A stretch of 64,000 nt of DNA from Campylobacterales bacterium (GCA_016938735.1 JAFGUB010000015.1:4806-68805); one strand, 5' to 3'. Counted from the stretch's first letter, positions 2,836 through 64,000 are shown. Notes: generated by a model not told the origin, from the letters alone. A program made the numbers and translations.

Positions 2836-2938
2836 ATTGGCTCCTTAAAAATGATCGCGCATGATAGCCCAGTGAAGACTCCTGCAAGCTTACATGTAAG
2901 CCTTAGAAGATTATAATTGATTCAAAAAAAGGCTCTGT

Positions 2939-3493
2939 ATGCACTTTTTATGGCGCGCTGACAGCCACTTCAATCTGGCCAATCTTGTCACGATGATCAA
3001 TATCTCCGCCGGTCTGATCGCCGTTTACATGATTACGCAGCATCTCTTCGTCATCGCCATCGTCCTAGCATGGATCGGCGGTATTTGCGACATTATCGAC
3101 GGCAAAATCGCGCGGCGCTACAAGCTCTCCAACCCCTTTGGCATCCAGCTCGACTCTTTTGCCGACTTTCTCTCGTTTGTGCTTGTGCCCACCTTTTTGA
3201 TATTTGAGACCGTCTACGCTTCGGTAGAGTTTCCGGCACTCATTGTCTGCGCGGGGGTAAGCATCTACTACGTCATCTCCGGTCTGCGCCGTCTCATCGC
3301 TTTTAATCTAGGCAGCGTGAGCGGCGAAGTGGCCCGCTACTTTGTCGGTGTCCCTACGCCGCTGGGGGCGATTTTGCTCTGGCTGGTTTATCTGGGCTTT
3401 ATCTACGGCCTCATCCCGCAAGCAGGCGTGATGGCGCTGATGGTGGCCATCGGCTACCTGCTCAACTCCAAACTCAAAATCCCCCATCCCTAA
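2939..3493 (+). CDS. CDP-alcohol phosphatidyltransferase family protein
   Basis: 184-aa membrane protein. DIIDGKIARR...FGIQLDSFADFLS matches D(x)2DG(x)2AR...G(x)3D(x)3D. Confidence 0.7.
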   Translation: MHFLWRADSHFNLANLVTMINISAGLIAVYMITQHLFVIAIVLAWIGGICDIIDGKIARRYKLSNPFGIQLDSFADFLSFVLVPTFLIFETVYASVEFPALIVCAGVSIYYVISGLRRLIAFNLGSVSGEVARYFVGVPTPLGAILLWLVYLGFIYGLIPQAGVMALMVAIGYLLNSKLKIPHP

Positions 3494-3502
3494 GGAGCAC
3501 TT

Positions 3503-4204
3503 ATGAAAGAGGTCCTCAAAAATTTCACAATCCTCTACGTCGAAGATGAAGAGCCGGTGCGTAAAGCTGCCGCTGAGTATCTGCGCCGCATGTGCAAAGA
3601 GGTGCTCGAAGCCAAAGACGGCAAAGAGGCGATTGTGCTGTGGAAGAGCCACCACCCCGACATCATCATCACCGACATCAACATGCCCCGCCTGAGCGGC
3701 ATCGATATGGCCCGCTACATCCGCGCTCAAGATACCCAAACCCAGATCATCATCGCCACGGCCCACGCCGATACGGAGTACCTGATGGAGGCGGTGGAGC
3801 TGCAGCTGGTCAAATACCTCATCAAACCCATCACCAAAGAGAAGCTCATCGGCGCACTGGAGCAGTCGGTCAAACTCACCGAAAACAAGTCCAAATTCTC
3901 TATTTCGCTCTCCGATGAGTGCCGCTACAACGCCTTTACCCAAAGCGTTACATGTAACGACGTCGAGATCAAACTGACCAAAAATGAGCGCCTATTTATG
4001 GATCTGCTCGCCCACTACCACACCCGCGTCGTACGCTATGAGGAGATCGAATCGGCCATCTGGCCCTATGAGGGGATGAGCCAAGACGCTATCCGCTCCT
4101 TGGTGCGCGGTCTGCGCAAAAAGGTCCCTGAGCGCTGCATCGAAAATATCTCCGGCGTCGGCTACAAACTCAATCTTTACGATGCTTCGGAACCACAATC
4201 CTAA
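3503..4204 (+). CDS. Response regulator, receiver plus OmpR/PhoB-type winged helix
   Basis: 233 aa. Receiver motifs are LYVEDEE, DIIITDINMP and KP. C-terminal LTKNERLFMDLL...GVGYKL forms a winged helix. TAAGGAG lies upstream of the ATG. Confidence 0.85.
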   Translation: MKEVLKNFTILYVEDEEPVRKAAAEYLRRMCKEVLEAKDGKEAIVLWKSHHPDIIITDINMPRLSGIDMARYIRAQDTQTQIIIATAHADTEYLMEAVELQLVKYLIKPITKEKLIGALEQSVKLTENKSKFSISLSDECRYNAFTQSVTCNDVEIKLTKNERLFMDLLAHYHTRVVRYEEIESAIWPYEGMSQDAIRSLVRGLRKKVPERCIENISGVGYKLNLYDASEPQS

Positions 4205-6077
4205 AACAGGCGCCCTGCGCATCGTTGTAGGCTTCAAGCCGGCCCCCAAGATGCCCCTCGACGATGGTTTTGGACATGTACAGCCCCAAGCCCGTCCCCT
4301 GTGAAGCCGATTTAGTGGAGAAGTAGGGATCAAAAATACGCGGCAAAATCTCCTCGCCGATCCCTCCGGCATTGTCGCACACCTCGATAATGCACGCCTC
4401 TTCCTCTTCAAAGCTGCGCGCCCGCACGATAGGCACCGCCACATCGCGCTCGATCAAGACCTCTTTGGCATTTTTGAGCAAATTGAGCACCACCTGCATC
4501 AGCTCGTTACGGTAGAGCTCTAGCGACGTATGCGAAGCGTAGCTTACATGTAAGGCGATAGCGTCCACCTCAAAGGTCTGCTCAATGAGCGGCAGGGTCT
4601 GCGAGAGCACCTCCGATAGGGTCGTCTGGCTACGCGCCTTGTCGGGACGGAAATAGTTACGAAAATCATCGATGGTCTGCGACATAAACTCCAGCAGCCG
4701 TGTCCCCTCGCGCAGCTTATCCTCCATATACTGCGGGGTAAGTTCCTTGTACTCGTACGCCCCTTCGATGTTCATAAAGACATACGAGAGCTGATTGAGC
4801 GGCTGACGCCACTGATGCGCGATCATCGAGATCATGTCCCCCATTTCAGCCATTTTCGACTGCTGAATCAGCATCTTCTCTTTCTCTTGATGCTGAAATA
4901 GTGCCTCTTTGATCCGCTCCTCCAGCGACGCATTGAGTTCACGCAACTTCTGCTCGCGGTCGCGCAGTTTACGCTGATAGAGCAAAAAGAGCTTACTGGT
5001 GTGACGGGAGATCATCAGCGAGATCACGATACTGACCAAACTGATCATAAATGCACCGAAGATGATGCGCAGCATCTCCTGATCGATCCGCCGCTCCAGC
5101 CGCTTTTGGCTCTCAATCAGCCCCGTATCAAATCCGGAGTGTTCAAAACCGTACACCAACGTCCAGCCAAAGGGCTCAAAGTGCTTTACATGTACCATCG
5201 CATGCTGTCCTTCGATCTCGAACCACTCCTTTTGAGGCTCCTGCGCCATGCGATAGCGCATCTCGGCGTCGATATACCGCTCCGCACTGCCCGAGCGATA
5301 AGGCATCCGATCCTGCTCCAATACGGCAATAAAACCGCTGCGCTCATTGGGGAAAGAGCGGATCATCTCGATCATCCGCTTTTTAAGCGCCGATCTGGCC
5401 GCTTCGATCGCCATTGCACTCCCAAAAAACCACTCGTAAGGGCCGAAATTGCGCACATAGTGAATCTCCTCACCGACCGCTTCACTCCATCTGGTTTTGA
5501 TAAACCCCGCACCGCGCTTACGCGCCGTCTGTATCTGCTCCAGGACGATCGCGCGACCATCCGCGTCCACAAAATCAATAATATTGCCACTTGGCAAAGA
5601 GGGCTCCGCAGACAAGATCGTGTTGCCCTGATAGTCGGTGATACGGATGGAGTTGCGCTGCGTCCCCTCCCACACCATCCGCCGTAGCGAATCAACGATA
5701 TGACGCTGAATCACCGCTTCATGCGAGATATTTTGGTACTTTTCATGAATATACAAGGCCGTATCATAAGCCAGATCAACACGGCTTTTGAGCGTACTGC
5801 GGATACCCACTTCAAGATGCGCCTCTTCATACTCAAGCATCTGAACGGTCTGCTTGATCCAGTTCTCGCTTTGAAGCTGTCTGGTGGCGATGTAGGCTTT
5901 GAGATTGCGCTGCTGCTCGTCATGGTACGTTTCGCGAATACGCTTGACATAAAGATAGGTAGCCACCCCAACCACCAGCAACACGCTAAAAAGCGGCGTC
6001 AGCAGGATCAACTTGGCGATAGAGCGCTCCGAAATACGCATCATAGATTCTCTTTGGGCAAAATCAATCGCGCCCAT
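4170..6077 (-). CDS. Membrane sensor histidine kinase
   Basis: 635-aa ORF with TM segments, a coiled coil, H-box MIAHQWRQPL and HATPase_c blocks NLLKNA, DNAGGI, GTGLGLYMS. The 3' end overlaps the convergent regulator gene by 35 nt. The true start may be the internal MMRISERS (about 6044), because the ATG at 6077 is embedded in a TATAAT-like box. Confidence 0.85.
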   Translation of the reverse strand: MGAIDFAQRESMMRISERSIAKLILLTPLFSVLLVVGVATYLYVKRIRETYHDEQQRNLKAYIATRQLQSENWIKQTVQMLEYEEAHLEVGIRSTLKSRVDLAYDTALYIHEKYQNISHEAVIQRHIVDSLRRMVWEGTQRNSIRITDYQGNTILSAEPSLPSGNIIDFVDADGRAIVLEQIQTARKRGAGFIKTRWSEAVGEEIHYVRNFGPYEWFFGSAMAIEAARSALKKRMIEMIRSFPNERSGFIAVLEQDRMPYRSGSAERYIDAEMRYRMAQEPQKEWFEIEGQHAMVHVKHFEPFGWTLVYGFEHSGFDTGLIESQKRLERRIDQEMLRIIFGAFMISLVSIVISLMISRHTSKLFLLYQRKLRDREQKLRELNASLEERIKEALFQHQEKEKMLIQQSKMAEMGDMISMIAHQWRQPLNQLSYVFMNIEGAYEYKELTPQYMEDKLREGTRLLEFMSQTIDDFRNYFRPDKARSQTTLSEVLSQTLPLIEQTFEVDAIALHVSYASHTSLELYRNELMQVVLNLLKNAKEVLIERDVAVPIVRARSFEEEEACIIEVCDNAGGIGEEILPRIFDPYFSTKSASQGTGLGLYMSKTIVEGHLGGRLEAYNDAQGACFRIVVPKHRKD

Positions 6078-6106: not shown

Positions 6107-6135
6107 CCAAGCCATTACATGTAAGCAGGAACCGC

Positions 6136-10449: not shown

Positions 10450-12402
10450 CTACTCTCGACGGTGTTCGTTGTCTTCTTGGTGCTGCTTCTCTTTAGCGCT
10501 CAGCTCTTGCAAACGCGTCGGCATTCCAGACTCTTTTTCAAAAGCCTCAATTATGTCGCGCACCTGTCGACCGGTGATATTCTCTTTGGCATAAAGCAGC
10601 TCTACCATCGACTCAATCGCACCCCGATAGAGCTCAAGACGCGCCTTTACCAGCTCGTAGTGCTCCGCAAGAGAAGATTTAATAAAGTCGTCCATCGCCT
10701 TGGCCATAGACTCACTGTACTCGCGGCTCGACTGCATTCCGCCGCCTAGGAAGGATTGACGCTGTTTTTCTAGCACCATCAAGCCGGCGACGTCACTCAT
10801 GCCGTACACTTGAACCATCGCTTTGATGATATCGGTTGCGCGCTCCAAATCATTTCCGGCTCCGGTGGAGATCTCACCGATAAAGACCTCTTCGGCCGCG
10901 CGTCCGCCCAGCAATACATCTACCTCAGCCCAAAGTTCATGGCGCTGCATCAGATATTTATTCTCTTCAGGTGTGTTGAGGGTATAACCCAGAGCAGCCA
11001 ATCCACGCGGTACAATCGAGACCTTGGAGACCCGTTTCGCGCCTTTGGTGGTCTCCGCCATAAGCGCATGACCACTCTCATGGTAGGCAACGATACGCTT
11101 CTCTTTTTCGTCGATACGGCGGCTCTTTTTAGCCAGACCGGCAATGGCGCGCTCCACTGATTCGCGCAGATCGCTCTGTTTGACCCACTTCTGATTTTTA
11201 CGACCGGCAAGCAGTGCGGCCTCATTGATGACATTCGCCAGATCAGCTCCTGCTAGTCCCGCAGTAAGGCGCGCGATCTCTTCAATATCGACATCGTCAC
11301 CCACCTTGATATCACGTACATGTACCTTCAAAATAGCGATGCGCCCTTCAAAATCGGGCTTATCCACCAAGACCTGACGGTCAAAACGACCCGGGCGCAA
11401 AAGTGCCGGATCCAGCACCTCAGGACGATTGGTTGCCGCCAGGATGATAATCGGCGTATCGGTACCAAAGCCGTCCATCTCCGCAAGCAGCTGATTGAGC
11501 GTTTGTTCACGCTCGTCATTGCCGCCCATCATGCCGTTGGCCGCGCGGCTTTTTCCGATGGCATCGATCTCGTCGATAAAGATGATCGAAGGCGCATCTT
11601 TTTTAGCCTGCTCAAACAGATCACGCACGCGCGCCGCACCGACACCGACGAACATCTCAATAAAACTCGATCCCGAGACTGAGAAAAACGGTACGTCCGC
11701 TTCGCCGGCAACCGCCTTTGCCAGAAGAGTTTTACCCGTTCCCGGGCTTCCGACGAGCAAAACACCCTTGGGAATCTTGGCGCCAAGTTCAACATAGCGA
11801 TCGGGGTATTTGAGAAAATCGACGATCTCTAAAACTTCCTCTTTGGCTTCATCCGCTCCGGCAACGTCATCGAACTTGGTTTTTGGCTTTTCGGAGTTAA
11901 TAAGCTTCTTCGCATTCCCCATCCCCAAAATGCCTCCGCCCATGCTCTTTTGCATCCGTCCGGCAAAAAACATCCAGATGGCAATAATGATCAAAAACGG
12001 CAATAGCCATCCGAACATCTCGGTAAACCAGTTGGTTTCGGAAAAACCGCTGTAATCGATCTTCTTTTCATCCAGCAGAGGAATCAGAGCATCATCCACG
12101 CCCACTTTACGCGCAACATACGCTGTACGCATCCCCTCTTCATTGCCCATGGCGCGAATCAGCGTCTGACCTATGGCTACTTTTTCAATCTGTCCCGATT
12201 CGATTTTCTTTTTGAGCTCAGCATAACTCACCTCTTGTGTTCGGACATTTTGTTGTCCGCTCATCTGAGAGCCGCCCACACCGGAATTTTCTCCGATCAA
12301 CGCCTTAAAGAGCATAATGATAACAATCGAGAAAATCGCAAATGTGACAAGCGGATTTTTATTGAAAAAATTGTCTTCTTTTTTCGGTTCGGGGGCGCTC
12401 AT
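10450..12402 (-). CDS. ftsH: ATP-dependent zinc metalloprotease FtsH
   Basis: 650 aa with Walker A GSPGTGKT, Walker [10 protein letters not shown] and zinc site HESGH. N-terminal TM helices are present. Confidence 0.95.
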
Positions 12403-13688: not shown

Positions 13689-14411
13689 TTAAAATAGAGC
13701 CCTAAGATCGATGGTTCCCTCATAGAAAGCTTTACCGATGATGACACCGCCCACTTCGCCCGTCGCACGTAATGCCTCGATGTCACGGTTGTCGCGCACG
13801 CCGCCGCTGGCGATGGTCATCACGCCGCTTGCGCGGGCGATCTCAAGCGTAAAATCGACGTTCACGCCGCTGAGTGTTCCATCTTTAGAAACGTCAGTGC
13901 AAATGATTGCCTCCACCCCAGCATCGGCAAAGGCGCGGGCAAGATCCGTAGCGCGCATACTGCTAAGCTCCCCCCACCCTTCAACCGCAACAAAGCCGTC
14001 GATGGCATCAATGCCGACGGCAATAGGGTATTTGGCTGCCATCGCTTTGACGAATTCCGGGTCTTTCACCGCAATAGAGCCTAAAATGATACGGTCGATA
14101 CCCAGATCAAGATAGCGTTTGATCGTCGCTTCGTCGCGGATACCTCCGCCAAGTTCAAGCTTTACATGTACATGTTTACGGATCAGTTCGATCTGCTCTA
14201 AATTCTTGGGCTCCCCCGCAAACGCGCCGTTGAGATCGACCAGATGCACCCATCTTGAGCCCATCTGCGCGAACGACTCCGCCAACCGCCAGGGCTCATC
14301 GGAGTAGATTTTGGCACTCTCCATCAGCCCTTTGGTCAGCCGCACGGCCTTTCCGTCTTTTAAATCGATTGCCGGCAATATCTCCACATCCGCTCCTTTA
14401 CAGCGATACAA
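13689..14411 (-). CDS. hisA: ProFAR isomerase HisA
   Basis: [16 protein letters not shown]-terminus followed by GGGIR and ASGGV phosphate-binding blocks. The real start may be the GTG giving VEILPAIDL (about 14387). Confidence 0.9.
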
Positions 14412-15009: not shown

Positions 15010-15085
15010 AAGGACTCTTTACATGTAACTTTGGAGGCGGATTATAACACCCCGTGCTTTAATCATCCATGCGATATAGTGGCAC

Positions 15086-16078
15086 ATGCCAAACAGTTCA
15101 CCGCGTATCGCCATCATCCGACTCAGCGCCCTTGGCGACATCGTCAACAGCGCCGTCGTGTTGCAACTCATCAAACTGCATCTTCCGAACGCGCGCATTA
15201 CATGGATCGTCGAAGAGGCGTTTGCTCCGCTGCTGGAGCATCATCCGATGCTTGAAAAGGTGGTGGCCCTGCCGATGAAGCGGCTCAAAAAAGAGCGCAG
15301 CCCCAAAGTGCTCGCTACCATCGTCTCCACCCTCAGACGACTCGGACCGTATGATCACGTTATCGATATGCAGGGGCTGCTCAAATCGGCCATCGTCGGG
15401 CGTTTGTGCGGTGCTCGCCTGCACGGATTCGACCGCCGCTCCATCAAAGAGCGCGCCGCTTCGTATCTCTATGCCTCACACAGCGCGATTGCCTACGAAG
15501 CCAATATCATCACCCGCAACTGCCGCGTCGTCGCCGATGCGCTGGGCTTTACATGTAACCCCGAAGAGATTGCGCAAAAAGAGCCTCTCTTTCCGACGGT
15601 AGCACTACGAAAGCCGCTTTTTGAAGGGGTCAATATCGCCATCGTCATCGGTGCCTCATGGCCCTCAAAACGCTACCCTAACCACAAAATCGTCTCACTG
15701 TGCGAAGCGCTCCCGCATCCTTGCCATCTCGTATGGGGGACGCCGCAGGAGTACGACGACGCACTGTGGATCGCCGCACAATGCCCGAACGCCCATGTCG
15801 CGCCGAAGATGGATCTGGCGCAACTTGTGAGTTTTATCGCCGCGTGCGACCTCACCATCGGCAACGACACCGGCCCGACCCACATGGCCTGGGCCATGAA
15901 CCGCGCTTCGATCACCCTTTTTGGCCCCACGTCAGGGCGTATGATCGGGCTCACCCCGCACAACATCGCCATCGAAGCCAGAAGCGACGTCGATGTGCGC
16001 CGCATCGATCGGCACGACCGCTCCATTATGACCATCGAGGTAGAGAGCATCGTACACCGCGCGCTGGAGCTGCTGTGA
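15086..16078 (+). CDS. waaC: Lipopolysaccharide heptosyltransferase I (GT9)
   Basis: 330 aa with N-terminal RIAIIRLSALGDIV and C-terminal GNDTGPTHMA blocks, typical of WaaC/RfaC. Followed by lpxL as in Campylobacter. Confidence 0.8.
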   Translation: MPNSSPRIAIIRLSALGDIVNSAVVLQLIKLHLPNARITWIVEEAFAPLLEHHPMLEKVVALPMKRLKKERSPKVLATIVSTLRRLGPYDHVIDMQGLLKSAIVGRLCGARLHGFDRRSIKERAASYLYASHSAIAYEANIITRNCRVVADALGFTCNPEEIAQKEPLFPTVALRKPLFEGVNIAIVIGASWPSKRYPNHKIVSLCEALPHPCHLVWGTPQEYDDALWIAAQCPNAHVAPKMDLAQLVSFIAACDLTIGNDTGPTHMAWAMNRASITLFGPTSGRMIGLTPHNIAIEARSDVDVRRIDRHDRSIMTIEVESIVHRALELL

Positions 16079-16962
16079 TTCTGTTTCGGCTCTATCTGGT
16101 CTTGGAGTGGATTTTGATGCGCTTGCCTAGAGCCGCGCGTAAAGGTTTTTTCACCTTTTTAGGCGACGCGGCTTACCATCTCGATCCCAAACACCGCCGC
16201 GTCATCGCACAAAACGTCCGCTTCACCCTTGGCGACGTAAGCGACGCACAGCTACGACGTATCGGGCGCTACTGTTACCGCAACCTGATGCTCTCCGCGC
16301 TGCAGATCATGGAGAACCGCCGCAATACCCGCGACGATCTGGCCTTACATGTACGTTTTCAAAACCGCTCCTACGTCGATGACGCCCTTGCAAAGGGGCG
16401 CAAAATCGTCTTTATCTCCGCGCATTACGGCAACTGGGAACTGGGTGCTACGGCGCTCAGCGCCCTGATCACCCCGACCCACGCGGTCTATAAGGCACTC
16501 AGTAACCCCCATTTCGACCGCTATCTGCTGGAGTCCCGCTCGAAGCTTGGAATGCGGATGGTCGAGAAACACGGTGCCATCAAACAGATGACACGGGCGA
16601 TCAAAAACGGTGAAAGCGTCTCGTTTCTGATCGATCAAAATACCTCCAAACGCGAAGGCATCGAAGTGACGTTTTTTGGCCAAAAGGCCAGACAAAGCGC
16701 CGCGCCCGCCTATCTGGCCCGAAAATACGACGCGCTCATCATCCCGCTCTTTATCGATACGCAAAATGAGGAAGCGTACGTCATCACGTTTGAAACGCCG
16801 CTGGAGGTGGCCCATAGCGATGACGCCGAACGTGACATCCTTGAGACCACGCAGGCGCTGAGTGACCTGATCGAGCGCATGATCCGCCGTGAACCGAAGT
16901 TCTGGTTTTGGTGTCACCGCCGGTTTAAGAGCGAACACCCAGAAATTTACAGAGCCTCGTAA
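16075..16962 (+). CDS. lpxL: Lipid A biosynthesis lauroyl/myristoyl acyltransferase (LpxL/HtrB family)
   Basis: GTG at 16075 overlaps the waaC stop (GTGA). The 295-aa product starts VILFRLYL and carries the SAHYGNWE acyltransferase block. The upstream part of track ORF 15700..16962 lies inside waaC and is rejected. Confidence 0.8.
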   Translation: MILFRLYLVLEWILMRLPRAARKGFFTFLGDAAYHLDPKHRRVIAQNVRFTLGDVSDAQLRRIGRYCYRNLMLSALQIMENRRNTRDDLALHVRFQNRSYVDDALAKGRKIVFISAHYGNWELGATALSALITPTHAVYKALSNPHFDRYLLESRSKLGMRMVEKHGAIKQMTRAIKNGESVSFLIDQNTSKREGIEVTFFGQKARQSAAPAYLARKYDALIIPLFIDTQNEEAYVITFETPLEVAHSDDAERDILETTQALSDLIERMIRREPKFWFWCHRRFKSEHPEIYRAS

Positions 16963-48117: not shown

Positions 48118-49562
48118 TGGATACCGTGCTAAGCTGGATCATCTTTATGCCCCTGCTGGGCATGGCGCTGGGCGGCGTGCTGCGTGCCTCGCTGAATCTG
48201 CTGCGGCTTTTGGCTTTTGGCTCATCGCTGCTGGTGCTCGCACTCGCGCTGGCGCTGGCGTGGCACTTCGATGCGGATGCGGGAATGCAGTTTGTCATGA
48301 TCGCGCCGTGGATCAAGAGCTACGGCGTCACCTACTACGTGGGGGTCGATGCCTTTTCGCTCATTTTGGTGCTGATCATCGCGCTGCTGATGCCGCTGCT
48401 CTATCTTTACATGTACCGCGAAGCGCGTCACGGTTACTGGTATCTGATGATGGCGCTGCAAACGGGGGTGATGGGCGCGGCGCTTTCGCTGGATCTGATG
48501 CTCTTTTATCTTTTTTGGGAGACGATGCTTTTGCCCGTGTTTATCATGATCGGGCGCTACGGCAGCAACAACCACCCCTTTTATGCGATGAAACTGCTGG
48601 TGATGACGGTCTTTGGCTCGATGGCCATGCTGCTCAGCATCCTCTACATGGGGTACGGTTTCTACGCCGAGCACGGATTTTGGAGCTTCGCGCTTAGCGA
48701 TTTGGCCCAAGACTCGCACGGGGCTCTGGTGGCGGCGGGCTTTTTGCTCGCCTTTGCCATCAAGATCCCCTTGCCGCTCTTTCACACCTGGATGGCGGGC
48801 AGCTACGGCTCTGCGCCCACACCGGCGGTGGTGATCATGTCTTCGGTGATGGCGAAGCTCGGCGCGTACGGCTTGTGGCGTTTTGGCTTCTCACTCTTTG
48901 AAGGGAGCCTGCACCACTTTGAGCCTTACCTCATCGCACTCGCCCTCTTTGGACTGCTCTTTTTTGCCCTGCACGCCGTGATGGAGCGCGATTTACGCCG
49001 TATGTTCGCCTACTCTTCAGGTTCGCACCTCTCGCTCATCGCTCTAGGCATCATGATCCAAAACCACTATGGCCTCTCCGGTGCGCTCTACCTCATCGCC
49101 ACCCACGCCCTCGCCTCGGCGGGGATCTTCTTGATGATCGGGCTGATCTTCGCGCGTGTGCGCACGCTGGAGATAGCCCAGCTCGGCGGCATCGCACAAT
49201 CGGCGCCGAAATTTGCCTTTTTCTTCGCTTTTTTTGCGCTGTGTATCGCGGGGGTGCCGGGCACCGGTGGTTTTGTCGCGGAGCTACTGATCATCATCGG
49301 TGCGTTTGAGTATGGCTTAGCTACGGGCGTGCTCGCCGCCACCACCATACTGGCGGCGATCCTCTTTATCTTCTGGATGCTTCAGCGCGTGCTTTTCGGG
49401 CCGCAAAGCCGTCAAACCGAAGGCTTTGTCGATCTGGGTGCGCGTGAAGTGGCGATGCTTGCCCCGTTGGTGCTTTTACTACTGCTCAGCGGGATTGCGC
49501 CGAACCTCTTTACGCCGCTTTTTGAACCTTCGCTCGCCTTGATGCTAGGAGGCCGCCCGTGA
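48117..49562 (+). CDS. nuoM: NADH-quinone oxidoreductase subunit M
   Basis: The ATG overlaps the nuoL TAA (TAATG). The alternative ATG is at 48105. It is an antiporter-like subunit with the FYLFWETMLLPVF block. Confidence 0.9.
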
Positions 49563-55014: not shown

Positions 55015-55057
55015 TTACATGTAACTATTTTTTGTCTAAACCGTAGACTACATGTAA
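55015..55057. repeat. TTACATGTAA plus one-off copy CTACATGTAA, 33 bp apart, in a divergent intergenic region
   Basis: The exact copy is at 55015-55024 and the variant at 55048-55057. They lie between the 5'-nucleotidase start (54917) and the regulator start (55086). Confidence 0.95.
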
Positions 55058-57678: not shown

Positions 57679-58020
57679 TCACTCCAAAATCTCCCCGTCC
57701 ACATAGACCCATGCCCCTTTATAGCGGCGAAAACGGGAGCGTTCGTGATGGCGCAGGGTCTTGCCCTCTTGCTCATAAAAAGCGATGAACTCCACTTTGC
57801 CGACCTTATCTCCCTCTTTGCCTTGCGATACACCCAGAATCTCTAGCTCGGTATAGCGCACCTCCTCAAGTGTCTGCGCGATCTCGCGCTCCAAATGCTT
57901 GCTGCGGGTGTCCGGGTCGTGCGTACGCGCCAGATAGTCGATATCGCCACGCACAAAAGCGTCAAAACGCGAACGCATCAGCTCCAGTGCGGTAGGGCTT
58001 ACATGTAAGGCTTGGTTCAT
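57679..58020 (-). CDS. YchJ-family (UPF0225, NTF2-like) protein
   Basis: From MNQALHVSPTALELMRSRFDAFVRGDIDYL, typical of YchJ-like proteins. Confidence 0.7.
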   Translation of the reverse strand: MNQALHVSPTALELMRSRFDAFVRGDIDYLARTHDPDTRSKHLEREIAQTLEEVRYTELEILGVSQGKEGDKVGKVEFIAFYEQEGKTLRHHERSRFRRYKGAWVYVDGEILE

Positions 58021-58098
58021 GGGGCACCTTGATCGAGAAATACGTGCGGACATTGTAGGCACCTGAGGCTGAAAACCCTTACATGTAAGCCCATCCTC

Positions 58099-59287: not shown

Positions 59288-59310
59288 AGCACCTTGTTAC
59301 ATGTAATCTT

Positions 59311-60264
59311 TCAATCGGTGAAACTCGGCACATAGGTTGTGTAGCTCACCTGCTGACCGACAGCGTCGTCGGCATAGACCGAACCCGCCTCGTTTTGCCA
59401 CACCGACACCGTAGTCCCTTCCGAACCGACCAGCCGAAGTTTAGTGCTCGTTTGTCCGTCTACCAAGCCGCTCTCGAGATACTGGTTTGAATTGAGCGCC
59501 ACCTTCCATTGCGGGGCGTTTAGGTTCATGGTCGTCTTAACGTAATAGAAGATGCCTTTGCTTTTGATCACTTCTCCAAAAAAGGCCACCGATCCAAGAT
59601 GTTTATCCGTAAAGGTCGCGTCCACGTCGTACTGTTGCGCATGCTGACCGTCCGAGAACGTCCCTTTAAAAACGGTGAAGTAGCTCACGCCCGTGCATCC
59701 GTAGTAATGCTCCTGTTTGTAGCTTAGATCCATCAGCGTGTTTTCGTTGTAGGTCAGATCAATATCGTTCCCCTCTCCGACCATTTTAAAACGAAAACCC
59801 TTTTCGATGGCTCCGGAGATACCGCGATAGCTTGCGTATTTGTCGGCTATATTGTATAGATAGGTGATATCTCTGGCATTCACGGTTCCGTGAAGGTAGA
59901 TACCAAGCGTGCCGAAGTTCATCTGGCACTTGTTAAAAACATGTTTACCGATCTGCTTCGTGGCATATTCGCTGTTGACGTAGGTGATATCGATTGTCCC
60001 GCCGTCGTTACATGTAAGCTGCTCCGCCATACCGCTGAAATTTTCGTGCAACAGCTCAAAAATGCCGGGTAGATAGGTTGAAACGCTCATGATACCGTAA
60101 GCGCGGAATCCGTTTTCGGCATTGGCCTGCGCCAGCTTCAAACCACCTCCACCTCCACCTCCACCTCCACCTCCACCTCCATCACCATCACCGCCGCCTC
60201 CACCGCCTCCGCATCCCGAGATCGCAAAAACGGTCAATAGGGAGATCAACCACTTTTTCATCAT
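59311..60264 (-). CDS. Lipoprotein with poly-Gly/Asp linker
   Basis: Signal peptide plus lipobox (LLTVFAISGC), followed by GGGGGGGDGDGGGGGGGGGGGG, then a ~270-aa beta-rich domain. No family recognised. Confidence 0.7.
   Translation of the reverse strand: MMKKWLISLLTVFAISGCGGGGGGGDGDGGGGGGGGGGGGGLKLAQANAENGFRAYGIMSVSTYLPGIFELLHENFSGMAEQLTCNDGGTIDITYVNSEYATKQIGKHVFNKCQMNFGTLGIYLHGTVNARDITYLYNIADKYASYRGISGAIEKGFRFKMVGEGNDIDLTYNENTLMDLSYKQEHYYGCTGVSYFTVFKGTFSDGQHAQQYDVDATFTDKHLGSVAFFGEVIKSKGIFYYVKTTMNLNAPQWKVALNSNQYLESGLVDGQTSTKLRLVGSEGTTVSVWQNEAGSVYADDAVGQQVSYTTYVPSFTD
60143..60210 (-). repeat. Hexanucleotide/trinucleotide simple repeat (CCACCT)6 plus degenerate GGN-type tail, encoding the poly-Gly linker
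   Basis: CCACCT occurs six times at 60143-60178, followed by CCATCACCATCACCGCCGCCTCCACCGCCTCC. Confidence 0.9.
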
Positions 60265-60441: not shown

Positions 60442-61443
60442 TTAGGGTTGAAGCGCAAAGACCGAATCGAGCTGCGCTTCGCTGAGGCGCACGCCCATGA
60501 AATGCTCATAAAAGAGGCGTGCTTCACGGCGCACATCCACATCCGCAAAGCGTTCTGGATAGAGCTTCGTCGCCATCCAGAGTCGCCCCAGCGGTTGTTC
60601 CGGAGTGTAGTGCGTCCAGAAGTGAGCGCCCATCGGCACGATATAGACCGCCTTATTTTGTACCGCTTTGAGCAAGGCGAATTTCGGCTCACGGTAGGCC
60701 AGTGCCACATCCTGCGCCGACCAAACGAAAAGCACATCCGGATTCCACGCATAGAGCTGCTCTAGAGTGATGTTAACGTGTTCCATCGGAACCTGCGCCG
60801 CAACGGCTGTACCTCCCGCGTCACGAATCATCGTATTGGCCGTTGAGACCATCGGCAAATTGAGCTGCCCCAGCCGCAGATAGAGTGCGCTAGAGCGCTC
60901 TCCTTGGTACTCCGCCATCGCTTGATCGATACGCTCCCTGATCGACTTCTCCCATGCGCGGTAGCGCACGACGCGCTCTTGCATTCCGAAAAGTTGACCC
61001 AAAAAAGCGACGCTCTGATCAATGCTCCGCTCGCCTTGCCAGTTGATGACGGCGAAGGTATAACCGCGTTTTTGGAGCACATCCGCCGCCAGCGTGTCAT
61101 TCACCAGCGCCACGTCTACATGTAAGGTCGAGAGTTTTTCAAAATCGGGCGTCCAGTCAGGCGGATTACGCGACACCTGCGGACGGCTAAGCACCTTAGG
61201 ATCGAACCATTGTTGATGCTTCCAAAAGGGCATTTTAGAGAGCGGCGGCTCTGCGCCGTTGACGAGTGTATCGGCTTTGCCGAAGAGATAGATGAAGCTG
61301 TTGAGCGCCGGAGTACCGCCGACCGTGGCAACATGCCTGACGTCCGCAGGTACGATCACTTCGCGCCCCGCCCTATCGACCAGCATCCTGCTTTCTGCGG
61401 ACAACCACAGCGCTGCGCTTAGCAGCAGTATCAGCGCACGCAT
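60442..61443 (-). CDS. ABC transporter periplasmic substrate-binding protein (iron-siderophore/cobalamin type)
   Basis: 333 aa with a signal peptide. The PBP type 8-like pattern is RHVATVGGTPALNS...PDVLFVW. It is adjacent to the TonB-dependent receptor. Confidence 0.8.
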   Translation of the reverse strand: MRALILLLSAALWLSAESRMLVDRAGREVIVPADVRHVATVGGTPALNSFIYLFGKADTLVNGAEPPLSKMPFWKHQQWFDPKVLSRPQVSRNPPDWTPDFEKLSTLHVDVALVNDTLAADVLQKRGYTFAVINWQGERSIDQSVAFLGQLFGMQERVVRYRAWEKSIRERIDQAMAEYQGERSSALYLRLGQLNLPMVSTANTMIRDAGGTAVAAQVPMEHVNITLEQLYAWNPDVLFVWSAQDVALAYREPKFALLKAVQNKAVYIVPMGAHFWTHYTPEQPLGRLWMATKLYPERFADVDVRREARLFYEHFMGVRLSEAQLDSVFALQP

Positions 61444-61444
61444 A

Positions 61445-63547
61445 TCAGTAGTGCAGATTCAGGCTTGCCACGACCGAAAAGGGGGCACCCTGATAGTAGT
61501 TTGTCGATCCCGGACGGGTGTCGTCTAGGCTGTTGGCGACCACGCCGACATATTTTTGGTTGGCGAGATTTTGTACGGCCAGCGTCACTTCGGCATGTTG
61601 CGGATCGATCACATAAGCGCCCGTCAGATCCACCACCGCATACGGATGAACCGTCTCTTTGTTTTCGGCGTCTCCGAAACGTTCGCCGACATAACGCAGC
61701 ATCGGACTCAGACGCCACCCTTGCGCTTTGAACGTCAGCCCCACTTTTGCGCCGACACGCGCCACATCGGGAATCTGCTTGCCTTTTGAAGCGAGATAGC
61801 GATCACTTGATAGCAAGATATCCTCATCAAAGGCGAAGCGGTTGTAATAACCCGAGGCAAACATCCCCAGCGCCTTGGAGAGTATCAGGTTCAGCTCGGC
61901 TTCGGCACCCATCGAAGTGGCCGAAGCGTTGCTTTTGTAGTAGCTCAGCTCCAGCGCCGGATCGTAGACCGTCACCTGTTTATGATCGTACGCGCCGTAA
62001 AAGAGGCCCACTTTGGCACCGACCGTATCGTCTGCGTAGCGCACGAAGAGCTCGACGTTATCCGAAGTCTCAAGCTTGAGCTCATCCCAAAGATCCTGCA
62101 GCGATATTCCTGCGGCGGTGAATTTAGCGGTATTGGAGTTATAGACCGACCATAGCGGCCCCTGCCACGGATTGGCGAAATTACGGCTGTAACCGCCGCC
62201 TAGAATAAGCGCGGAGGAGAGATAGCGCTCAACGATCAGGCTTGGCAACACGACCGCTTCGTCGCTTGCATCGACCTGCATTCCGGCATACAGATGCGTC
62301 TGATCGAAGGCCACATCGTAACTGAGATAGGGTGAACTTGATACACGCTGATCGATATCGTTGAGCATGGCGATACTTTTGTACTCAAGCGAACCGTTGG
62401 GTTTGATTGCAAACATCTTGGTCATCTTCGGCGGCGGCGTACTCTCTAGGCTCTGATACCACCACCCCGCCAGAAGCGTGCCGCCCAAAAGCGGATACTC
62501 CGCCTCGACGAGTGCGCCGTAGGCCTCTTGCGTCTGATCAATGCGCTGAACCATTTTGTTGGAAGGGTTGCCCGTATAACGCTCTCCTTCGTTGCCGAAC
62601 ATGTAGGGTTTGAAGTGCAGCGTCGCCTCACCCAGCGTTACATGTAAGCCCGCTTTGAGGGCGTATTCGTCAAACGACTGTCGGTAAAAATCGTAATAAT
62701 TGATGTCCTCAGCCGCATTGCCGGTGAGTTTGGTGTTGTAATCTTTGGCATAATTTTAGGAGAGTGCTTTGGTTTGCGCATAGGTGAGCGGGCGGTACTC
62801 ATGTCGTTCAAAACGGTTGTAGGCACCGAAGAGATCCGCTTTGACCGTATCGCCGAGATCCCACTCGATCATCGCCGAGAAGTTGTCGCGTTTGATATCG
62901 CCCTCCCCGCGCCACTTCTCATTCGACGCGCGTGAACCGGAAGCAAACAGACCAAATCCGCCATAAACGCCGCTGTCCAGACGCAAAAAGAGTTTGTTGT
63001 AGCGATCCGAACCCAGCGCGGCGGAAAAGTGCGCCGACGGTACGGCGGATGGGTGCTGAATCTTCATATCCAGCGCTCCGGCGGTACTGCCCAGACCCAA
63101 AGCGCGGTTGACGGGGATGATGCCGTTGGCAAACGATACCCCCTCGATATTCTCACGATCTACGACGTAGCCCGATCCGCTCTGACCGACGTTAACCGCG
63201 AAAGGGACGCCGTCGATCGTCGTGGAGATGCGGCTGAATGTATCTCCTACCTGTCCGCGAACCCGTAGAATATTCTGATCGACGGTGAGCGCGTAGGGGT
63301 CATGCGTCTCGACGTTGACTGATGGCAGCATCAGCAAACTCTTAAAATAGTTGGTCGATGTCGTCGCTTGCAGGGTCTCTAGCATCTGCGCACTGACCGT
63401 ACGTTCCATCACGCCGTCACTGCCCGAAAACGGCTCTTGCAACGCTCCGCTGACACTCACCGGAGCAATCTCAACACTCTGAGCCTGCAGCAGTGTTGCG
63501 GCGACCAGAGAGCCAAAAGCCGCTCTGCTTACTGAAAATCCAAACAT
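61445..63547 (-). pseudogene. TonB-dependent outer-membrane receptor with in-frame TAA at 62756-62758
   Basis: The signal peptide and plug domain lie in ORF 62756..63547. The same frame continues after the TAA (NYAKDYNTKLTG...) into the barrel ORF 61445..62602. The total is about 700 codons. Confidence 0.8.
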
Positions 63548-63697
63548 ACCTTATCCTTGTATCTATTTTGATATAACGAATCATGCCCTAAATTAGGCTC
63601 TTTAAAAATAAACATCCCGCTTTTGAATGTTTAGTTTTTAACCAAACGGAGTGGCTTACATGTAACATGCGGAGAATGTCAGCGCATCACCAGGGCG

Positions 63698-64000
63698 CTA
63701 GAGCGCCTCGATATACACTTTCACGTCGCTACTAGGGGCGCCGTAGGGGGCGGAAGTGACGATGATGTCGGCTCCGCACGCCGCGTATTCGCGCACGTTT
63801 TGTAGGGTGATGCCGCCGGTGGCGATCAGTTTGAGATGGACGAACTCCGTCTGAAGCGCCTGCACGCTCTGACGCAAACGCTCAATCGGAAACTTCTCAA
63901 GCTGCAGAATGTCCGCGCCCATACGGGCGAATTTTTGGGCCTCTTCGAGCGAATGCACCTCAATAACCAGCGGTTTTTCGGGGGCGTGGCGCTTTACATG
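63698..64000 (-). CDS. NadC/ModD-family phosphoribosyltransferase, 3' part (5' end outside window)
   Basis: C-terminal blocks GADILQLEKF, LIATGGI and GADIIVTSAPY are typical of the QPRTase/ModD fold. The frame is open to the window edge. Confidence 0.7.
   Translation of the reverse strand, partial: HVKRHAPEKPLVIEVHSLEEAQKFARMGADILQLEKFPIERLRQSVQALQTEFVHLKLIATGGITLQNVREYAACGADIIVTSAPYGAPSSDVKVYIEAL

What the first reader, a model, noticed from the sequence alone, without database searches (positions are those of the whole stretch)
2890..64000. 10-bp palindrome TTACATGTAA at uptake-sequence-like density (at least 32 exact copies in 64 kb)
By eye I find 32 complete exact copies. They start at 2890, 3948, 4544, 6115, 15019, 15549, 18953, 19355, 22620, 28176, 29524, 30206, 30228, 37385, 38657, 39149, 39432, 41529, 42356, 42795, 43161, 43476, 43983, 46432, 47590, 55015, 57999, 58079, 59297, 60008, 62638 and 63656. 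One more is cut by the window end (63994). At least 11 further sites differ at a single base: 612 TTGCATGTAA; 2190, 5186, 14162, 16345 and 48407 TTACATGTAC; 24303 TTACATGTAG; 28267 GTACATGTAA; 55048 and 61116 CTACATGTAA; 52765 TTACTTGTAA. The flanking bases are biased (C before in 19/32, G after in 16/32), so the consensus is the 12-14-bp palindrome (G)CTTACATGTAAG(C). There are 10 exact CTTACATGTAAG copies and one 18-bp perfect palindrome at 19351-19368. Beyond that the flanks are unrelated, so these are not copies of a longer element. For a 10-mer with 8 A/T positions in ~55% GC DNA, my rough expectation is 64000 x 0.225^8 x 0.275^2, or about 0.03 copies. The excess is therefore about three orders of magnitude. 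Twenty-three copies sit inside CDSs of unrelated genes on both strands, including regulator, kinase, waaC, hsdR, hsdM, rhuM, nuoC/D/F/G/H/L, lipoprotein and TonB receptor genes. They always use one of the only two frames that avoid the internal TAA, encoding L-H-V (15 times) or x-T-C-N/K (8 times). Nine copies are intergenic, which is more than the roughly 10% non-coding fraction would predict. Selection therefore acts on the DNA word, not on a peptide. The density is about 1 per 2 kb, or 1 per 1.4 kb with variants. That is the same order as Neisseria DUS and Pasteurellaceae USS. Campylobacterota are naturally competent, and C. jejuni is known to discriminate self DNA through a short methylated motif. 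A palindromic uptake or self-recognition signal centred on CATG/ACATGT is therefore an attractive hypothesis that I cannot match to any described system. Alternatives are a dense binding site for a nucleoid or chromosome-organisation protein, or a methyltransferase target maintained for epigenetic reasons.
Basis: partly seen in the sequence, partly recalled or inferred. Interest (0 to 1): 0.92.

Follow-up and report, generated by a model that had tools for sequence, protein, structure and literature searches.

The report
Hyper-abundant palindrome TACATGTA in Campylobacterota genomes
This bacterial chromosome, like those of several related sulfur bacteria, carries the exact palindromic DNA word TTACATGTAA about once every 2 kb, actively kept even though it changes proteins. 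It is a previously undescribed counterpart of the long-unexplained cyanobacterial HIP1 repeat, and it occurs in culturable species where its function can be tested.

Summary
TTACATGTAA occurs 32 times in 64 kb against 0.04 expected. The core octamer TACATGTA occurs 42 times and is the commonest 8-mer in the window.

- **A DNA word, not a peptide or a mobile repeat.** Sites arise by substitution. They use only the two stop-free frames and force L-H-V or x-T-C-N/K into unrelated proteins. One-mismatch variants sit at background.
- **Widespread but patchy.** The window is from a Campylobacterales MAG. The same word is hyper-abundant in related MAG lineages, in many metagenome contigs, and in the cultured species Sulfurospirillum multivorans, Sulfurospirillum sp. 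T05 and Hydrocurvibacter mobilis.
- **Actively maintained.** Sites stay at orthologous positions far beyond background sequence conservation.
- **Lost at least twice.** One Sulfurovum lineage nested among carriers has none. H. sulfurireducens keeps 1 of 7 sites shared by H. mobilis and a more distant relative; one- or two-mismatch relics mark the other six. Maintenance therefore depends on a dispensable trans-acting factor.

The closest known thing is cyanobacterial HIP1 (GCGATCGC); USS/DUS are looser analogues. The function is untested. My best guess, about 0.4, is a self-DNA tag read during natural transformation, at uptake and/or recombination, possibly in methylated form. I found no description of it in the searchable literature.

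The parts
2890..2899 (.). TTACATGTAA, intergenic between divergent genes (2206-2835 minus, 2939-3493 plus)
3948..3957 (.). TTACATGTAA in response-regulator gene, frame V-T-C-N
4544..4553 (.). TTACATGTAA in histidine-kinase gene, frame L-H-V
6115..6124 (.). TTACATGTAA, intergenic, 12 bp upstream of serS start
15019..15028 (.). TTACATGTAA, intergenic between divergent hisH-like and heptosyltransferase genes
15549..15558 (.). TTACATGTAA in heptosyltransferase gene, frame F-T-C-N
18953..18962 (.). TTACATGTAA in gene 17620-19152 (no Pfam family), frame V-T-C-K
19355..19364 (.). TTACATGTAA in gene 19293-19700, frame L-H-V; centre of a 22-bp perfect palindrome 19349-19370
22620..22629 (.). TTACATGTAA in gene 22311-22955, frame L-H-V
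28176..28185 (.). TTACATGTAA in hsdR (island gene with host-like GC), frame L-H-V
29524..29533 (.). TTACATGTAA in rhuM-family gene, frame L-H-V
30206..30215 (.). TTACATGTAA, intergenic; first of a pair 22 bp apart
30228..30237 (.). TTACATGTAA, intergenic; second of the pair
37385..37394 (.). TTACATGTAA in hsdM, frame L-H-V; none of 120 close HsdM homologues has LHV here, so the site was made in situ
38657..38666 (.). TTACATGTAA in hsdM, frame L-H-V; likewise absent from 120 homologues
39149..39158 (.). TTACATGTAA in the N-terminal part of nuoC (S-L-H-V-S); orthologous site in L002 and L007
39432..39441 (.). TTACATGTAA in nuoCD, frame L-T-C-K; specific to this lineage
41529..41538 (.). TTACATGTAA in nuoF, frame L-H-V; specific to this lineage
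42356..42365 (.). TTACATGTAA in nuoG, frame L-H-V; conserved at the orthologous position in all five motif-bearing lineages
42795..42804 (.). TTACATGTAA in nuoG, frame F-T-C-N; shared with L002
43161..43170 (.). TTACATGTAA in nuoG, frame L-T-C-N; probably the same site as in L002, L007 and L253 (alignment gap)
43476..43485 (.). TTACATGTAA in nuoG, frame L-T-C-K; shared with L002
43983..43992 (.). TTACATGTAA in nuoH, frame L-H-V; shared with L002, L007 and L253
46432..46441 (.). TTACATGTAA in nuoL, frame L-H-V; shared with L002 and L255
47590..47599 (.). TTACATGTAA in nuoL, frame L-H-V; shared with L002 and L007
55015..55024 (.). TTACATGTAA in 5'-nucleotidase-like gene, frame V-T-C-K
57999..58008 (.). 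TTACATGTAA in YchJ-like gene, frame L-H-V
58079..58088 (.). TTACATGTAA, intergenic, 17 bp upstream of gene 57679-58062
59297..59306 (.). TTACATGTAA, intergenic between convergent genes
60008..60017 (.). TTACATGTAA in gene 59311-60264, frame L-T-C-N
62638..62647 (.). TTACATGTAA in the TonB-receptor reading frame (G-L-H-V-T), which is interrupted upstream by one in-frame TAA
63656..63665 (.). TTACATGTAA, intergenic
63994..64000 (.). TTACATG, a copy cut by the window end
2190..2199 (.). Core TACATGTA with one non-consensus flank (TTACATGTAC), frame L-H-V-L
5186..5195 (.). Core with one non-consensus flank (TTACATGTAC), read V-H-V-K on the gene strand
11316..11325 (.). Core with both flanks non-consensus (GTACATGTAC) in ftsH, V-H-V-R
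14162..14171 (.). Core with one non-consensus flank (TTACATGTAC), V-H-V-K
16345..16354 (.). Core with one non-consensus flank (TTACATGTAC), L-H-V-R
24303..24312 (.). Core with one non-consensus flank (TTACATGTAG), intergenic
28267..28276 (.). Core in the third frame in hsdR: TAC-ATG-TAC (Y-M-Y), the closest spelling that avoids the TAA stop
48407..48416 (.). Core in the third frame in nuoM: Y-M-Y, the stop-avoiding spelling
55048..55057 (.). Core with one non-consensus flank (CTACATGTAA), V-T-C-S
61116..61125 (.). Core with one non-consensus flank (CTACATGTAA), L-H-V-D

Best explanation
SHOWN. The chromosome carries a highly iterated palindrome. The core is the exact octamer TACATGTA, usually extended to TTACATGTAA, and in this genome preferably flanked by C/G. 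It occurs about once per 1.5-2 kb. Copies arise by base substitution in resident DNA, in genes and between them, and they override codon preference and amino-acid sequence. The word is read with restriction-enzyme-like exactness, because one-mismatch neighbours are not enriched. Copies persist at the same orthologous positions through deep divergence. When a lineage loses the ability to maintain them, they decay like neutral sequence. Maintenance therefore needs a trans-acting, dispensable, lineage-specific factor.

INFERRED, my preferred mechanism. The word is a self-DNA tag used in natural transformation. A symmetric, probably dimeric, reader recognises it on incoming DNA or during recombination, possibly only when an inner CATG/ACATGT is methylated by a resident methyltransferase. 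Fragments that carry the word are then taken up or recombined preferentially. Alleles that gain a copy spread and alleles that lose one are replaced; this is molecular drive, with or without added selection.

I rate the descriptive part at about 0.9 and the transformation mechanism at about 0.35-0.4.
For: Abundance and exactness:
- 32 10-mers against 0.04 expected, and 42 cores.
- Pooled over 342 kb of motif-bearing DNA: 217 cores against 5.25 expected, while the 24 one-mismatch variants total 132 against 135 expected.

DNA-level force:
- LHV occurs 18 times against 3.9 expected, 16 of them spelled TTACATGTA. TC[NK] occurs 9 times against 0.83, all spelled ACATGTAA. No site lies in the TAA frame; where the core falls in that frame it is spelled TAC-ATG-TAC.

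Origin by substitution and continuing gain:
- Orthologues without the word have unrelated residues of the same length at site positions, and there are lineage-specific sites.
- Both hsdM sites are absent from 120 homologues of 76-86% identity.

Active maintenance:
- nuo operon: 6 of 8 sites conserved window to L002 (background 10.6%, P = 3e-5); 3 of 8 window to L007 (background 2.2%); 4 of 7 L002 to L007 (background 2.3%).
- The nuoG site is shared by all five motif-bearing lineages.
- 7 of 7 sites conserved between H. mobilis and the L217 relative at 77.5% nucleotide identity (P = 2e-6).

Dependence on a factor that can be lost:
- The motif-less L005/L256 lineage nests inside the motif-bearing clade (bootstraps 91-100%) and has 0 cores in 21 kb.
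- H. sulfurireducens, 82% identical to H. mobilis, keeps 1 of 7 sites (background 23%, P = 0.83) and has one- or two-mismatch relics at the other six.
- No replacement word appears in the motif-less lineages.

Self versus foreign DNA:
- The low-GC block 30269-37300 has 0 cores in 7.2 kb, while the host-like hsdR and hsdM have 2 each.

Precedents for the inferred function:
- Methylated HIP1 raises natural transformation of Synechococcus by up to more than 100-fold (bioRxiv 10.1101/2024.09.10.611283).
- HIP1 abundance correlates with DNA-uptake machinery (bioRxiv 10.64898/2026.06.24.733823).
- Campylobacter jejuni takes up only DNA methylated at the palindrome RAATTY (PMC8468864 and PMC10046745).
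Against: - No experiment and no gene links the word to uptake, recombination or methylation.
- No competence gene or orphan DNA methyltransferase was found in the window or in 459 kb of motif-bearing DNA.
- Known uptake sequences (USS, DUS) are asymmetric and their one-mismatch variants are enriched; here they are not.
- Natural competence is not documented, in what I could search, for Sulfurospirillum, Hydrocurvibacter or these MAG lineages.
- The foreign-block gap is not significant as a post hoc largest gap; comparable gaps of 5.2-6.6 kb occur in core DNA.
- Positional conservation and erosion after loss are equally predicted by a repair ratchet or by a structural binding protein.
- The phylogenies are neighbour-joining trees of one operon from MAGs.
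Confidence: 0.4

Rival explanations
1. By-product of biased repair, with no selected function. A methyltransferase marks an inner site (CATG or ACATGT), and a very-short-patch-type or methyl-directed repair activity corrects mismatches in and near the word towards the word. This is the one-way ratchet Elhai proposed for HIP1. It both creates copies and protects existing ones.
For: - The word is razor-sharp, as expected for recognition by a methyltransferase or endonuclease.
- It has a nested palindrome structure CATG < ACATGT < TACATGTA, analogous to GATC < CGATCG < GCGATCGC (PMC4390886).
- Sites appeared in situ in an acquired hsdM through several amino-acid-changing substitutions.
- Sites decay neutrally once maintenance is lost.
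- Copies impose Cys and His on proteins, which looks costly rather than adaptive.
Against: - One-mismatch neighbours are neither depleted, as a fast ratchet would predict, nor enriched. The deamination product TATATGTA/TACATATA is 0.63 of expectation, which is not significant.
- The relics in H. sulfurireducens show a mixed mutation spectrum, not one signature change.
- No candidate methyltransferase or Vsr-like gene was seen in the DNA held.
- Such a ratchet has never been demonstrated for HIP1 (PMC5861425).
Confidence: 0.2
2. Binding sites for a chromosome-organising or nucleoid-associated protein. A dimeric protein binds the palindrome all along the chromosome and shapes domains, segregation or compaction. 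This is the function Xu, Lawrence and Durand proposed for HIP1. Selection keeps the sites.
For: - The word is genome-wide, orientation-free and dense, and its positions are conserved.
- Close pairs 14-36 bp apart recur in several lineages.
- Sites are enriched between genes in this window.
- Phage contigs carry operator-like arrays of an extended version, (A)ACTTTACATGTAAAGT(T). So proteins that bind this palindrome exist.
Against: - Nucleoid proteins usually tolerate degenerate sites; here one mismatch abolishes enrichment.
- An essential architectural role fits poorly with two clean losses in close relatives and no replacement word.
- Periodicity could not be tested on 64 kb.
Confidence: 0.15
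3. Operator of a global transcription regulator, or an RNA-level signal. Every transcript through a site carries UUACAUGUAA, which contains an AUG-UAA start-stop and UACAU.
For: - 8 of 32 sites are intergenic, mostly within 10-130 bp upstream of starts, and several lie between divergent genes.
- There are operator-like arrays in phages.
- Being a palindrome, the word reads the same in RNA whichever way it is transcribed.
Against: - About three quarters of sites are inside genes, spread evenly along them, in unrelated genes.
- Pooled relatives show almost no intergenic enrichment: 17% of sites against 14% non-coding.
- The density of one per 1-2 kb, and the amino-acid cost, are far beyond any regulon.
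- The 10-mer alone cannot form a stable hairpin.
- For HIP1, gene-level and RNA-level roles were tested and not supported (PMC5861425).
Confidence: 0.05
4. Remnants or target sites of a mobile element (a MITE- or REP-like repeat), or selection for the peptides L-H-V / T-C-K.
For: Many dispersed identical copies; recurrent tripeptides.
Against: - Similarity ends at 12-14 bp and flanks are unrelated.
- Sites replace sequence of the same length in orthologues rather than being insertions.
- Most sites are in coding DNA.
- Two different peptides from two frames, plus intergenic copies, share only the DNA.
- 16 of 18 LHV use rare codons.
Confidence: 0.01

Closest known systems
HIP1 (Highly Iterated Palindrome 1, GCGATCGC) and its variants in cyanobacteria
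   Same: - It is an exact 8-bp palindrome, tens to hundreds of times over-represented, found inside and between genes.
- It is conserved at orthologous positions beyond background.
- Some lineages carry a variant word or flanks, and some have lost it.
- It contains nested shorter palindromes that could be methyltransferase targets.
- Its function is unresolved (PMC4390886, PMC5861425).
   Different: - The word is different (TACATGTA, A/T-rich, with a preferred 10-bp extension) and the phylum is different.
- No cognate methyltransferases have been identified here.
- HIP1's one-mismatch variants are reported as conserved or enriched; here they are at background.
- Periodicity was not testable.
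- Here two recent, phylogenetically nested losses, one between cultured sister species, are documented.
DNA uptake sequences: USS of Pasteurellaceae and DUS of Neisseriaceae
   Same: - The density is about one per 1-2 kb and the word occurs in coding and non-coding DNA.
- It is placed in permissive frames and in variable parts of proteins.
- Positions are shared among related species, as would be expected if accumulation is by molecular drive.
   Different: - USS and DUS are asymmetric words.
- Their mismatched variants are enriched.
- DUS often form inverted pairs at terminators.
- Preferential uptake has been demonstrated for USS and DUS, and a pilin receptor (ComP) is known for DUS.
Methylation-dependent DNA discrimination in Campylobacter jejuni (CtsM, RAATTY)
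   Same: Same phylum. A short palindrome marks self DNA for uptake (PMC8468864, PMC10046745).
   Different: RAATTY is a degenerate 6-mer that is common by composition and not hyper-abundant. Its signal is the methyl group, not an accumulated word. No CtsM-like gene was identified here.
Chi sites (RecBCD/AddAB recombination hotspots)
   Same: A short over-represented chromosomal word that distinguishes self DNA during recombination. A Chi-like role has been suggested for HIP1.
   Different: Chi is asymmetric and oriented with replication, and its over-representation is modest. A palindrome cannot carry orientation.
REP/BIME elements and MITEs
   Same: Dispersed, palindromic and numerous.
   Different: These are 20-300 bp imperfect units confined to intergenic DNA and spread by transposition. 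Here the unit is 8-10 bp, exact, mostly inside genes, and made by substitution.

Membership tests
HIP (highly iterated palindrome) class | Exact short palindrome (octamer) over-represented at least about 15-fold genome-wide | tested here: met
   42 cores against 0.45 expected in the window. 217 against 5.25 in 342 kb of pooled DNA. 8 against 0.38 in 21 kb of S. multivorans and 14 against 0.22 in Sulfurospirillum sp. T05. Only samples of these genomes were tested, not whole genomes.
HIP (highly iterated palindrome) class | Copies lie inside and between genes of unrelated function; they are not part of a longer repeat | tested here: met
   24 coding and 8 intergenic sites, with unrelated flanks.
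HIP (highly iterated palindrome) class | Copies conserved at orthologous positions above background | tested here: met
   with P from 2e-6 to 5e-4 in motif-bearing pairs.
HIP (highly iterated palindrome) class | Inner sub-palindromes are methylated by orphan methyltransferases | not testable with these tools
   There are no methylome data, and no candidate gene in the DNA held.
HIP1 proper | The word is GCGATCGC (or a one- or two-base variant) in a cyanobacterium | tested here: not met
   The word is TACATGTA and the organisms are Campylobacterota. It is therefore HIP-like, not HIP1.
DNA uptake sequence (USS/DUS) | DNA carrying the word is preferentially taken up by competent cells | not testable with these tools
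   This needs uptake or transformation assays.
DNA uptake sequence (USS/DUS) | Density of about one per kb on both strands, with frame-biased placement in genes | tested here: met
DNA uptake sequence (USS/DUS) | Graded recognition: singly mismatched copies also enriched | tested here: not met
   132 observed against 135 expected.
Chi-type recombination hotspot | Asymmetric word with strand or replichore orientation bias | tested here: not met
   The word is its own reverse complement.
REP / MITE mobile repeats | A longer conserved unit, intergenic, present as an insertion relative to empty sites | tested here: not met
Restriction-modification target | The target palindrome is avoided in the host genome | tested here: not met
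   The word is enriched, not avoided. ACATGT outside the core is mildly depleted in both motif-bearing (0.61) and motif-less (0.41) relatives, so it does not discriminate.

The most novel reading that the evidence does not exclude
TACATGTA is written and policed by a dedicated sequence-specific conversion system: a reader or methyltransferase coupled to short-patch repair that turns near-cognate DNA into the exact word and restores damaged copies. It would be a selfish or domesticated word-writing drive that works without transformation. It would be identifiable as the gene set present in H. mobilis but lost in H. sulfurireducens and in the L005/L256 lineage. It would be the first demonstrated mechanism of its kind and would probably also explain HIP1.
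Probability: 0.15. Interest if true: 0.95.

Novelty: new variant of a known kind. Interest (0 to 1): 0.82.

Why it matters
Hyper-abundant exact palindromes have so far been treated as a peculiarity of cyanobacteria. After three decades HIP1 still has no agreed function.

An independent case, with a different word in a different phylum, shows the phenomenon is convergent and general. It also comes with what HIP1 research has lacked:
- Losses nested within carrier clades. One is between two cultured sister species with complete genomes: H. mobilis CP147917 keeps the word, and H. sulfurireducens CP147918 is letting it decay.
- A well-studied cultured carrier, S. multivorans.

A simple gene presence/absence comparison should name the trans-acting factor. 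Methylome, uptake and binding experiments can then decide between transformation tag, repair ratchet and chromosome architecture.

Practical uses:
- The word is a marker of long-resident versus newly acquired DNA in these genomes.
- It may be needed for efficient genetic manipulation of these environmentally important sulfur-cycling and organohalide-respiring bacteria.

Tried and rejected
- **Mobile repeat or peptide selection:** rejected.
- **Phage origin or phage-wide presence:** the IMG/VR scan with GCTTACATGTAAGC gave 51 essentially single hits. The scan with CTTTACATGTAAAG gave mostly single hits plus a few operator-like clusters and one inovirus-like region with dispersed copies. This does not explain the chromosomal word.
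- **A replacement word in motif-less relatives:** none found.
- **ACATGT/CATG avoidance as an R-M signature:** depletion is similar in motif-bearing and motif-less relatives, so it is uninformative.
- **Taxonomy of metagenome contigs by tblastn with window proteins:** no useful hits. This was solved instead through named 90%-identity cluster mates.
- **Candidate reader, methyltransferase or competence genes:** Pfam on about 50 window genes, plus a catalytic-motif screen of 459 kb of motif-bearing DNA, found only the type I hsdM, a small MTS-family (TrmN6-like) methyltransferase and a HerA-like ATPase.
- **Island inserted at a motif site:** no. It sits exactly at the nuoB stop / nuoC start junction.
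- **Excess of short spacings:** only slight, 19 observed against about 14 expected below 100 bp.
- **Literature:** no paper in the library links TTACATGTAA or TACATGTA to bacterial genome composition.
- **Not attempted:** structure prediction and Rfam searches. The feature is a DNA word, not a gene or a structured RNA.

Full report
**1. Checking the observation**

TTACATGTAA occurs at exactly the 32 listed positions. One hundred dinucleotide-preserving shuffles gave a mean of 0.04 and never more than 1. Allowing one mismatch gives 43 sites against 0.88 expected, and the window ends inside a further copy.

Window GC is 51.7%. The most frequent 8-mer in the window is the core TACATGTA, with 42 copies. 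Thirty-two of these have T..A flanks, and each single-base variant of the core occurs only 0-3 times. Beyond the 10-mer the two adjoining positions prefer C/G: position -1 is C in 35 of 64 half-sites and A in 3. Further out the flanks are unrelated.

**2. The word acts at the DNA level**

With my gene calls and two corrections, 24 sites are coding and 8 are intergenic. The corrections are that 39149 lies in the N-terminal part of nuoC and that 62638 lies in a TonB-receptor frame broken by one stop. Fifteen coding sites read L-H-V, nine read x-T-C-N/K, and none uses the frame that would give TAA.

- The tripeptide LHV occurs 18 times against 3.9 expected; its permutations occur 2-7 times.
- Sixteen of those 18 are spelled TTACATGTA, although TTA is 6.6% of Leu codons and GTA is 15% of Val codons.
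- TC[NK] occurs 9 times against 0.83 expected, always spelled ACATGTAA.
- Where the core falls in the forbidden frame it is spelled TAC-ATG-TAC (Y-M-Y), the nearest stop-free version.

In 278 kb of related motif-bearing DNA the same holds: 84 L-H-V, 56 x-T-C-K/N, 6 Y-M-x and 29 intergenic. Intergenic enrichment is strong in this window, with 8 of 32 sites in 2.8% non-coding DNA (P = 2e-6), but weak in the pooled set.

**3. Organism and gene context**

The window's NuoG is identical to a protein of an NCBI MAG labelled Campylobacterales bacterium, on a 70-kb contig. The nearest species representative is a Sulfurimonadaceae MAG at 80% NuoF identity.

The window carries housekeeping genes and the nuo operon. 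The operon is split exactly at the nuoB/nuoC junction by a 13.8-kb type I restriction-modification and defence island. No competence gene or orphan DNA methyltransferase is present in the window.

**4. Distribution among relatives**

In 20-kb nuo loci of 80 species representatives, only two have the word: L002 with 10 copies and L007 with 8. These have GC of 55% and 42%. All other Campylobacterota and outgroup loci have none.

Among the 120 nearest NuoG homologues, only six carry the motif-encoded peptides. Their DNA confirmed two more motif-bearing lineages, L253/L254 and L255, and a second assembly of the motif-less lineage, L256.

About 29 of the 120 stretches had multiple copies, at GC 33-51%. 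One lineage (L163) has 11 cores mostly flanked C..G. So the octamer is the unit and the flank preference is lineage-specific.

Named cluster mates placed these contigs in Sulfurimonas, Hydrocurvibacter and Sulfurospirillum. Direct inspection of cultured genomes confirmed this:

| Genome | DNA inspected | Cores observed | Cores expected |
|---|---|---|---|
| S. multivorans CP042966 | 21 kb | 8 | 0.38 |
| H. mobilis CP147917 | 21 kb | 8 | 0.36 |
| Sulfurospirillum sp. T05 | 14 kb | 14 | 0.22 |
| Sulfurimonas sp. HSL1-2 | 21 kb | 0 | 0.07 |
| A Sulfurimonas sp. contig (Ga0256840_1000065) | 21 kb | 2 | 0.47 |

The word therefore occurs, patchily, in two named families, Sulfurospirillaceae and Sulfurimonadaceae, and in a MAG clade whose members carry mixed labels (Campylobacterales, Sulfurimonadaceae, Sulfurovum).

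**5. Exactness**

In 342 kb of pooled motif-bearing DNA the core occurs 217 times against 5.25 expected. The 24 one-mismatch variants together occur 132 times against 135 expected; individual ratios range from 0.58 to 1.76. Whatever reads the word discriminates every base.

**6. How sites evolve**

- **Origin.** Codon alignments of the nuo genes show that sites replace unrelated sequence of the same length in motif-less orthologues. They are substitutions at variable protein positions, not insertions.
- **Retention.** Sites are kept far beyond background. Window to L002: 6 of 8 exact, against 10.6% of all 10-mers (P = 3e-5). Window to L007: 3 of 8 against 2.2%. L002 to L007: 4 of 7 against 2.3%. 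One nuoG site is shared by all five motif-bearing lineages.
- **Gain.** Lineage-specific sites show that gain continues. The two sites in the horizontally spread hsdM are absent from all 120 homologues of 76-86% identity: SFEELYNSLKA against [11 protein letters not shown], and RFTSLQQELKE against [11 protein letters not shown]. They were made in situ.
- **Foreign DNA.** The compositionally foreign part of the island, 30269-37300 at GC 27-44%, has no core in 7.2 kb. The host-like hsdR and hsdM have two each. This is suggestive only: as a post hoc largest gap it is not significant.

**7. Two losses**

*First loss.* A neighbour-joining tree was built from about 3,750 Nuo residues with the motif codons masked. 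It places the motif-less Sulfurovum lineage L005/L256 inside the motif-bearing clade. That lineage is sister to window+L002 with 91% bootstrap, and the whole clade has 100% support. L005/L256 has no core and almost no ACATGT.

*Second loss.* In Hydrocurvibacter, H. mobilis and the more distant metagenome relative L217 (77.5% nucleotide identity) share 7 of 7 H. mobilis cores (background 15%, P = 2e-6). The closer H. sulfurireducens (82% identity) keeps 1 of 7 (background 23%, P = 0.83). At the other six positions it has one- or two-mismatch relics: TGCATGTA twice, TAGATGTA, TACATATA, TTCATGTA and TACATGGA.

No other word takes over in the motif-less lineages. Maintenance therefore depends on a dispensable trans-acting factor, and without it the sites drift like neutral sequence.

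**8. What it most likely is and does**

Shown: this is a highly iterated palindrome, factor-dependent, actively maintained and created in resident DNA.

Inferred: the function. I favour a self-DNA tag acting in natural transformation, at uptake and/or recombination, perhaps read when methylated. Three precedents support this:
- Methylated HIP1 boosts transformation of Synechococcus.
- HIP1 abundance tracks uptake machinery.
- C. jejuni, in the same phylum, takes up only DNA methylated at a palindrome.

Such a drive explains accumulation, conservation, amelioration of acquired genes and decay after loss.

Two rivals predict the same patterns and are not excluded: Elhai's repair ratchet and a chromosome-structuring protein. 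A regulon or RNA signal is unlikely, and a mobile repeat or peptide selection is refuted.

**9. Comparison with known systems**

The word meets the testable defining features of the HIP class: an exact octamer palindrome, tens-fold excess, presence in and between genes, positional conservation, and lineages with variants or loss. It is not HIP1 itself, because the word and the phylum differ.

It resembles USS/DUS in density and coding behaviour. It differs in symmetry and in the lack of enriched mismatched copies. It fails the definitions of Chi, REP/MITE and restriction targets.

Nine full-text searches found no description of this word in bacterial genomes.

**10. Caveats**

- Only samples of each genome were available, not whole genomes.
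- Several lineages are MAGs.
- The trees rest on one operon.
- ORF calls in the pooled contigs are crude.
- Function was not tested.

Noticed in passing
window 25265-39017: The nuo operon is split exactly at the nuoB stop / nuoC start by a 13.8-kb minus-strand defence island. It carries hsdR, Fic, RhuM, two small ORFs, an AAA_13 ATPase, hsdS, ORF6N, two YhcG/DUF1016 nucleases and hsdM. In all relatives examined, nuoB is followed directly by nuoC.
   Followed up: partly
window 30269-37300: The inner part of the island has GC of 27-44% against 52-57% for the host, so it is compositionally foreign. It holds the largest motif-free gap in the window (7.16 kb).
   Followed up: partly
window 25265-28359: hsdR is in two overlapping ORFs (25265-26791 and 26680-28359). 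This is a frameshift or an assembly error, so the restriction subunit may be inactive.
   Followed up: no
window 39178-39242: A perfect 26-bp tandem duplication (plus a 13-bp sub-repeat) interrupts nuoC just after the motif site at 39149. It splits NuoC/D into ORFs of 78 aa and 451 aa. The same split is seen in an independent Logan assembly of SRR13394436.
   Followed up: partly
window 61445-63547: A TonB-dependent receptor is broken into plug and barrel ORFs by a single in-frame TAA near 62756. The reading frame continues through the motif site at 62638.
   Followed up: partly
L286 358-545; L288 6686/6831 (same as L336); L303 6754/6894; L279; L271 (IMG/VR contigs): Several phage contigs carry tight clusters of an extended palindrome, (A)ACTTTACATGTAAAGT(T). 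One has up to 5 copies in 180 bp, and pairs sit 140-145 bp apart. They look like repressor operators, so proteins that bind this palindrome exist in phages.
   Followed up: partly
L337 (IMGVR_UViG_2558860208_000001) 1396-6040: An inovirus-like region (Zot-like ATPase, pIV-like secretin, transposase) from an isolate genome has 7 dispersed cores in 11.9 kb at GC 33%. That is host-like density in integrated mobile DNA.
   Followed up: partly
L086, L117, L128 (IMGVR_UViG_3300020042_006565, 55 kb, GC 59%): Three dispersed copies of CGCTTACATGTAAGC occur in one viral contig that otherwise has no motif enrichment.
   Followed up: no
L163 (Ga0256845_1000966) 2466-12309: A GC-33% lineage has 11 TACATGTA cores, mostly flanked C..G (CTACATGTAG, encoding Leu as CTA). 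This shows that flank preference differs between lineages.
   Followed up: partly
window 37385 and 38657 (hsdM): The two hsdM sites share a longer context on the gene strand, F-E-x-L-H-V-T-L, with about 24 nt of similar DNA. Both replaced helix segments of the form F-[ET]-x-L-x-x-x-L in homologues.
   Followed up: partly
window 30206/30228; L217 3543/3564; L246 5554/5577; L244 816/835; L220 13002/13018; L146 74/88: Pairs of copies 14-23 bp apart recur in different lineages, and pairs of 33-36 bp also occur. The window pair is intergenic; I did not check where the others lie. Overall the excess of short spacings is small.
   Followed up: partly
pooled loci (342 kb motif-bearing, 320 kb motif-less Campylobacterota): Several palindromic hexamers are under-represented in both sets: GCATGC 0.42-0.45, ACATGT 0.41-0.61, GTATAC about 0.4, TCTAGA 0.2-0.36 of expectation. 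This may reflect generic restriction avoidance in the group.
   Followed up: no
L246 7223-8537 (minus strand); same protein cluster as Sulfurospirillum sp. T05 WP_205459893.1: A single 437-aa glycosyltransferase carries five motif-encoded peptides (three LHVK and two TCK). It shows how heavily the word can load one protein.
   Followed up: no
every site: The word contains ATG-TAA, a start codon followed directly by a stop, on both strands. It also contains UACAU, which I recall as a cleavage pentad of some MazF-type toxins. No significance could be attached to either.
   Followed up: no
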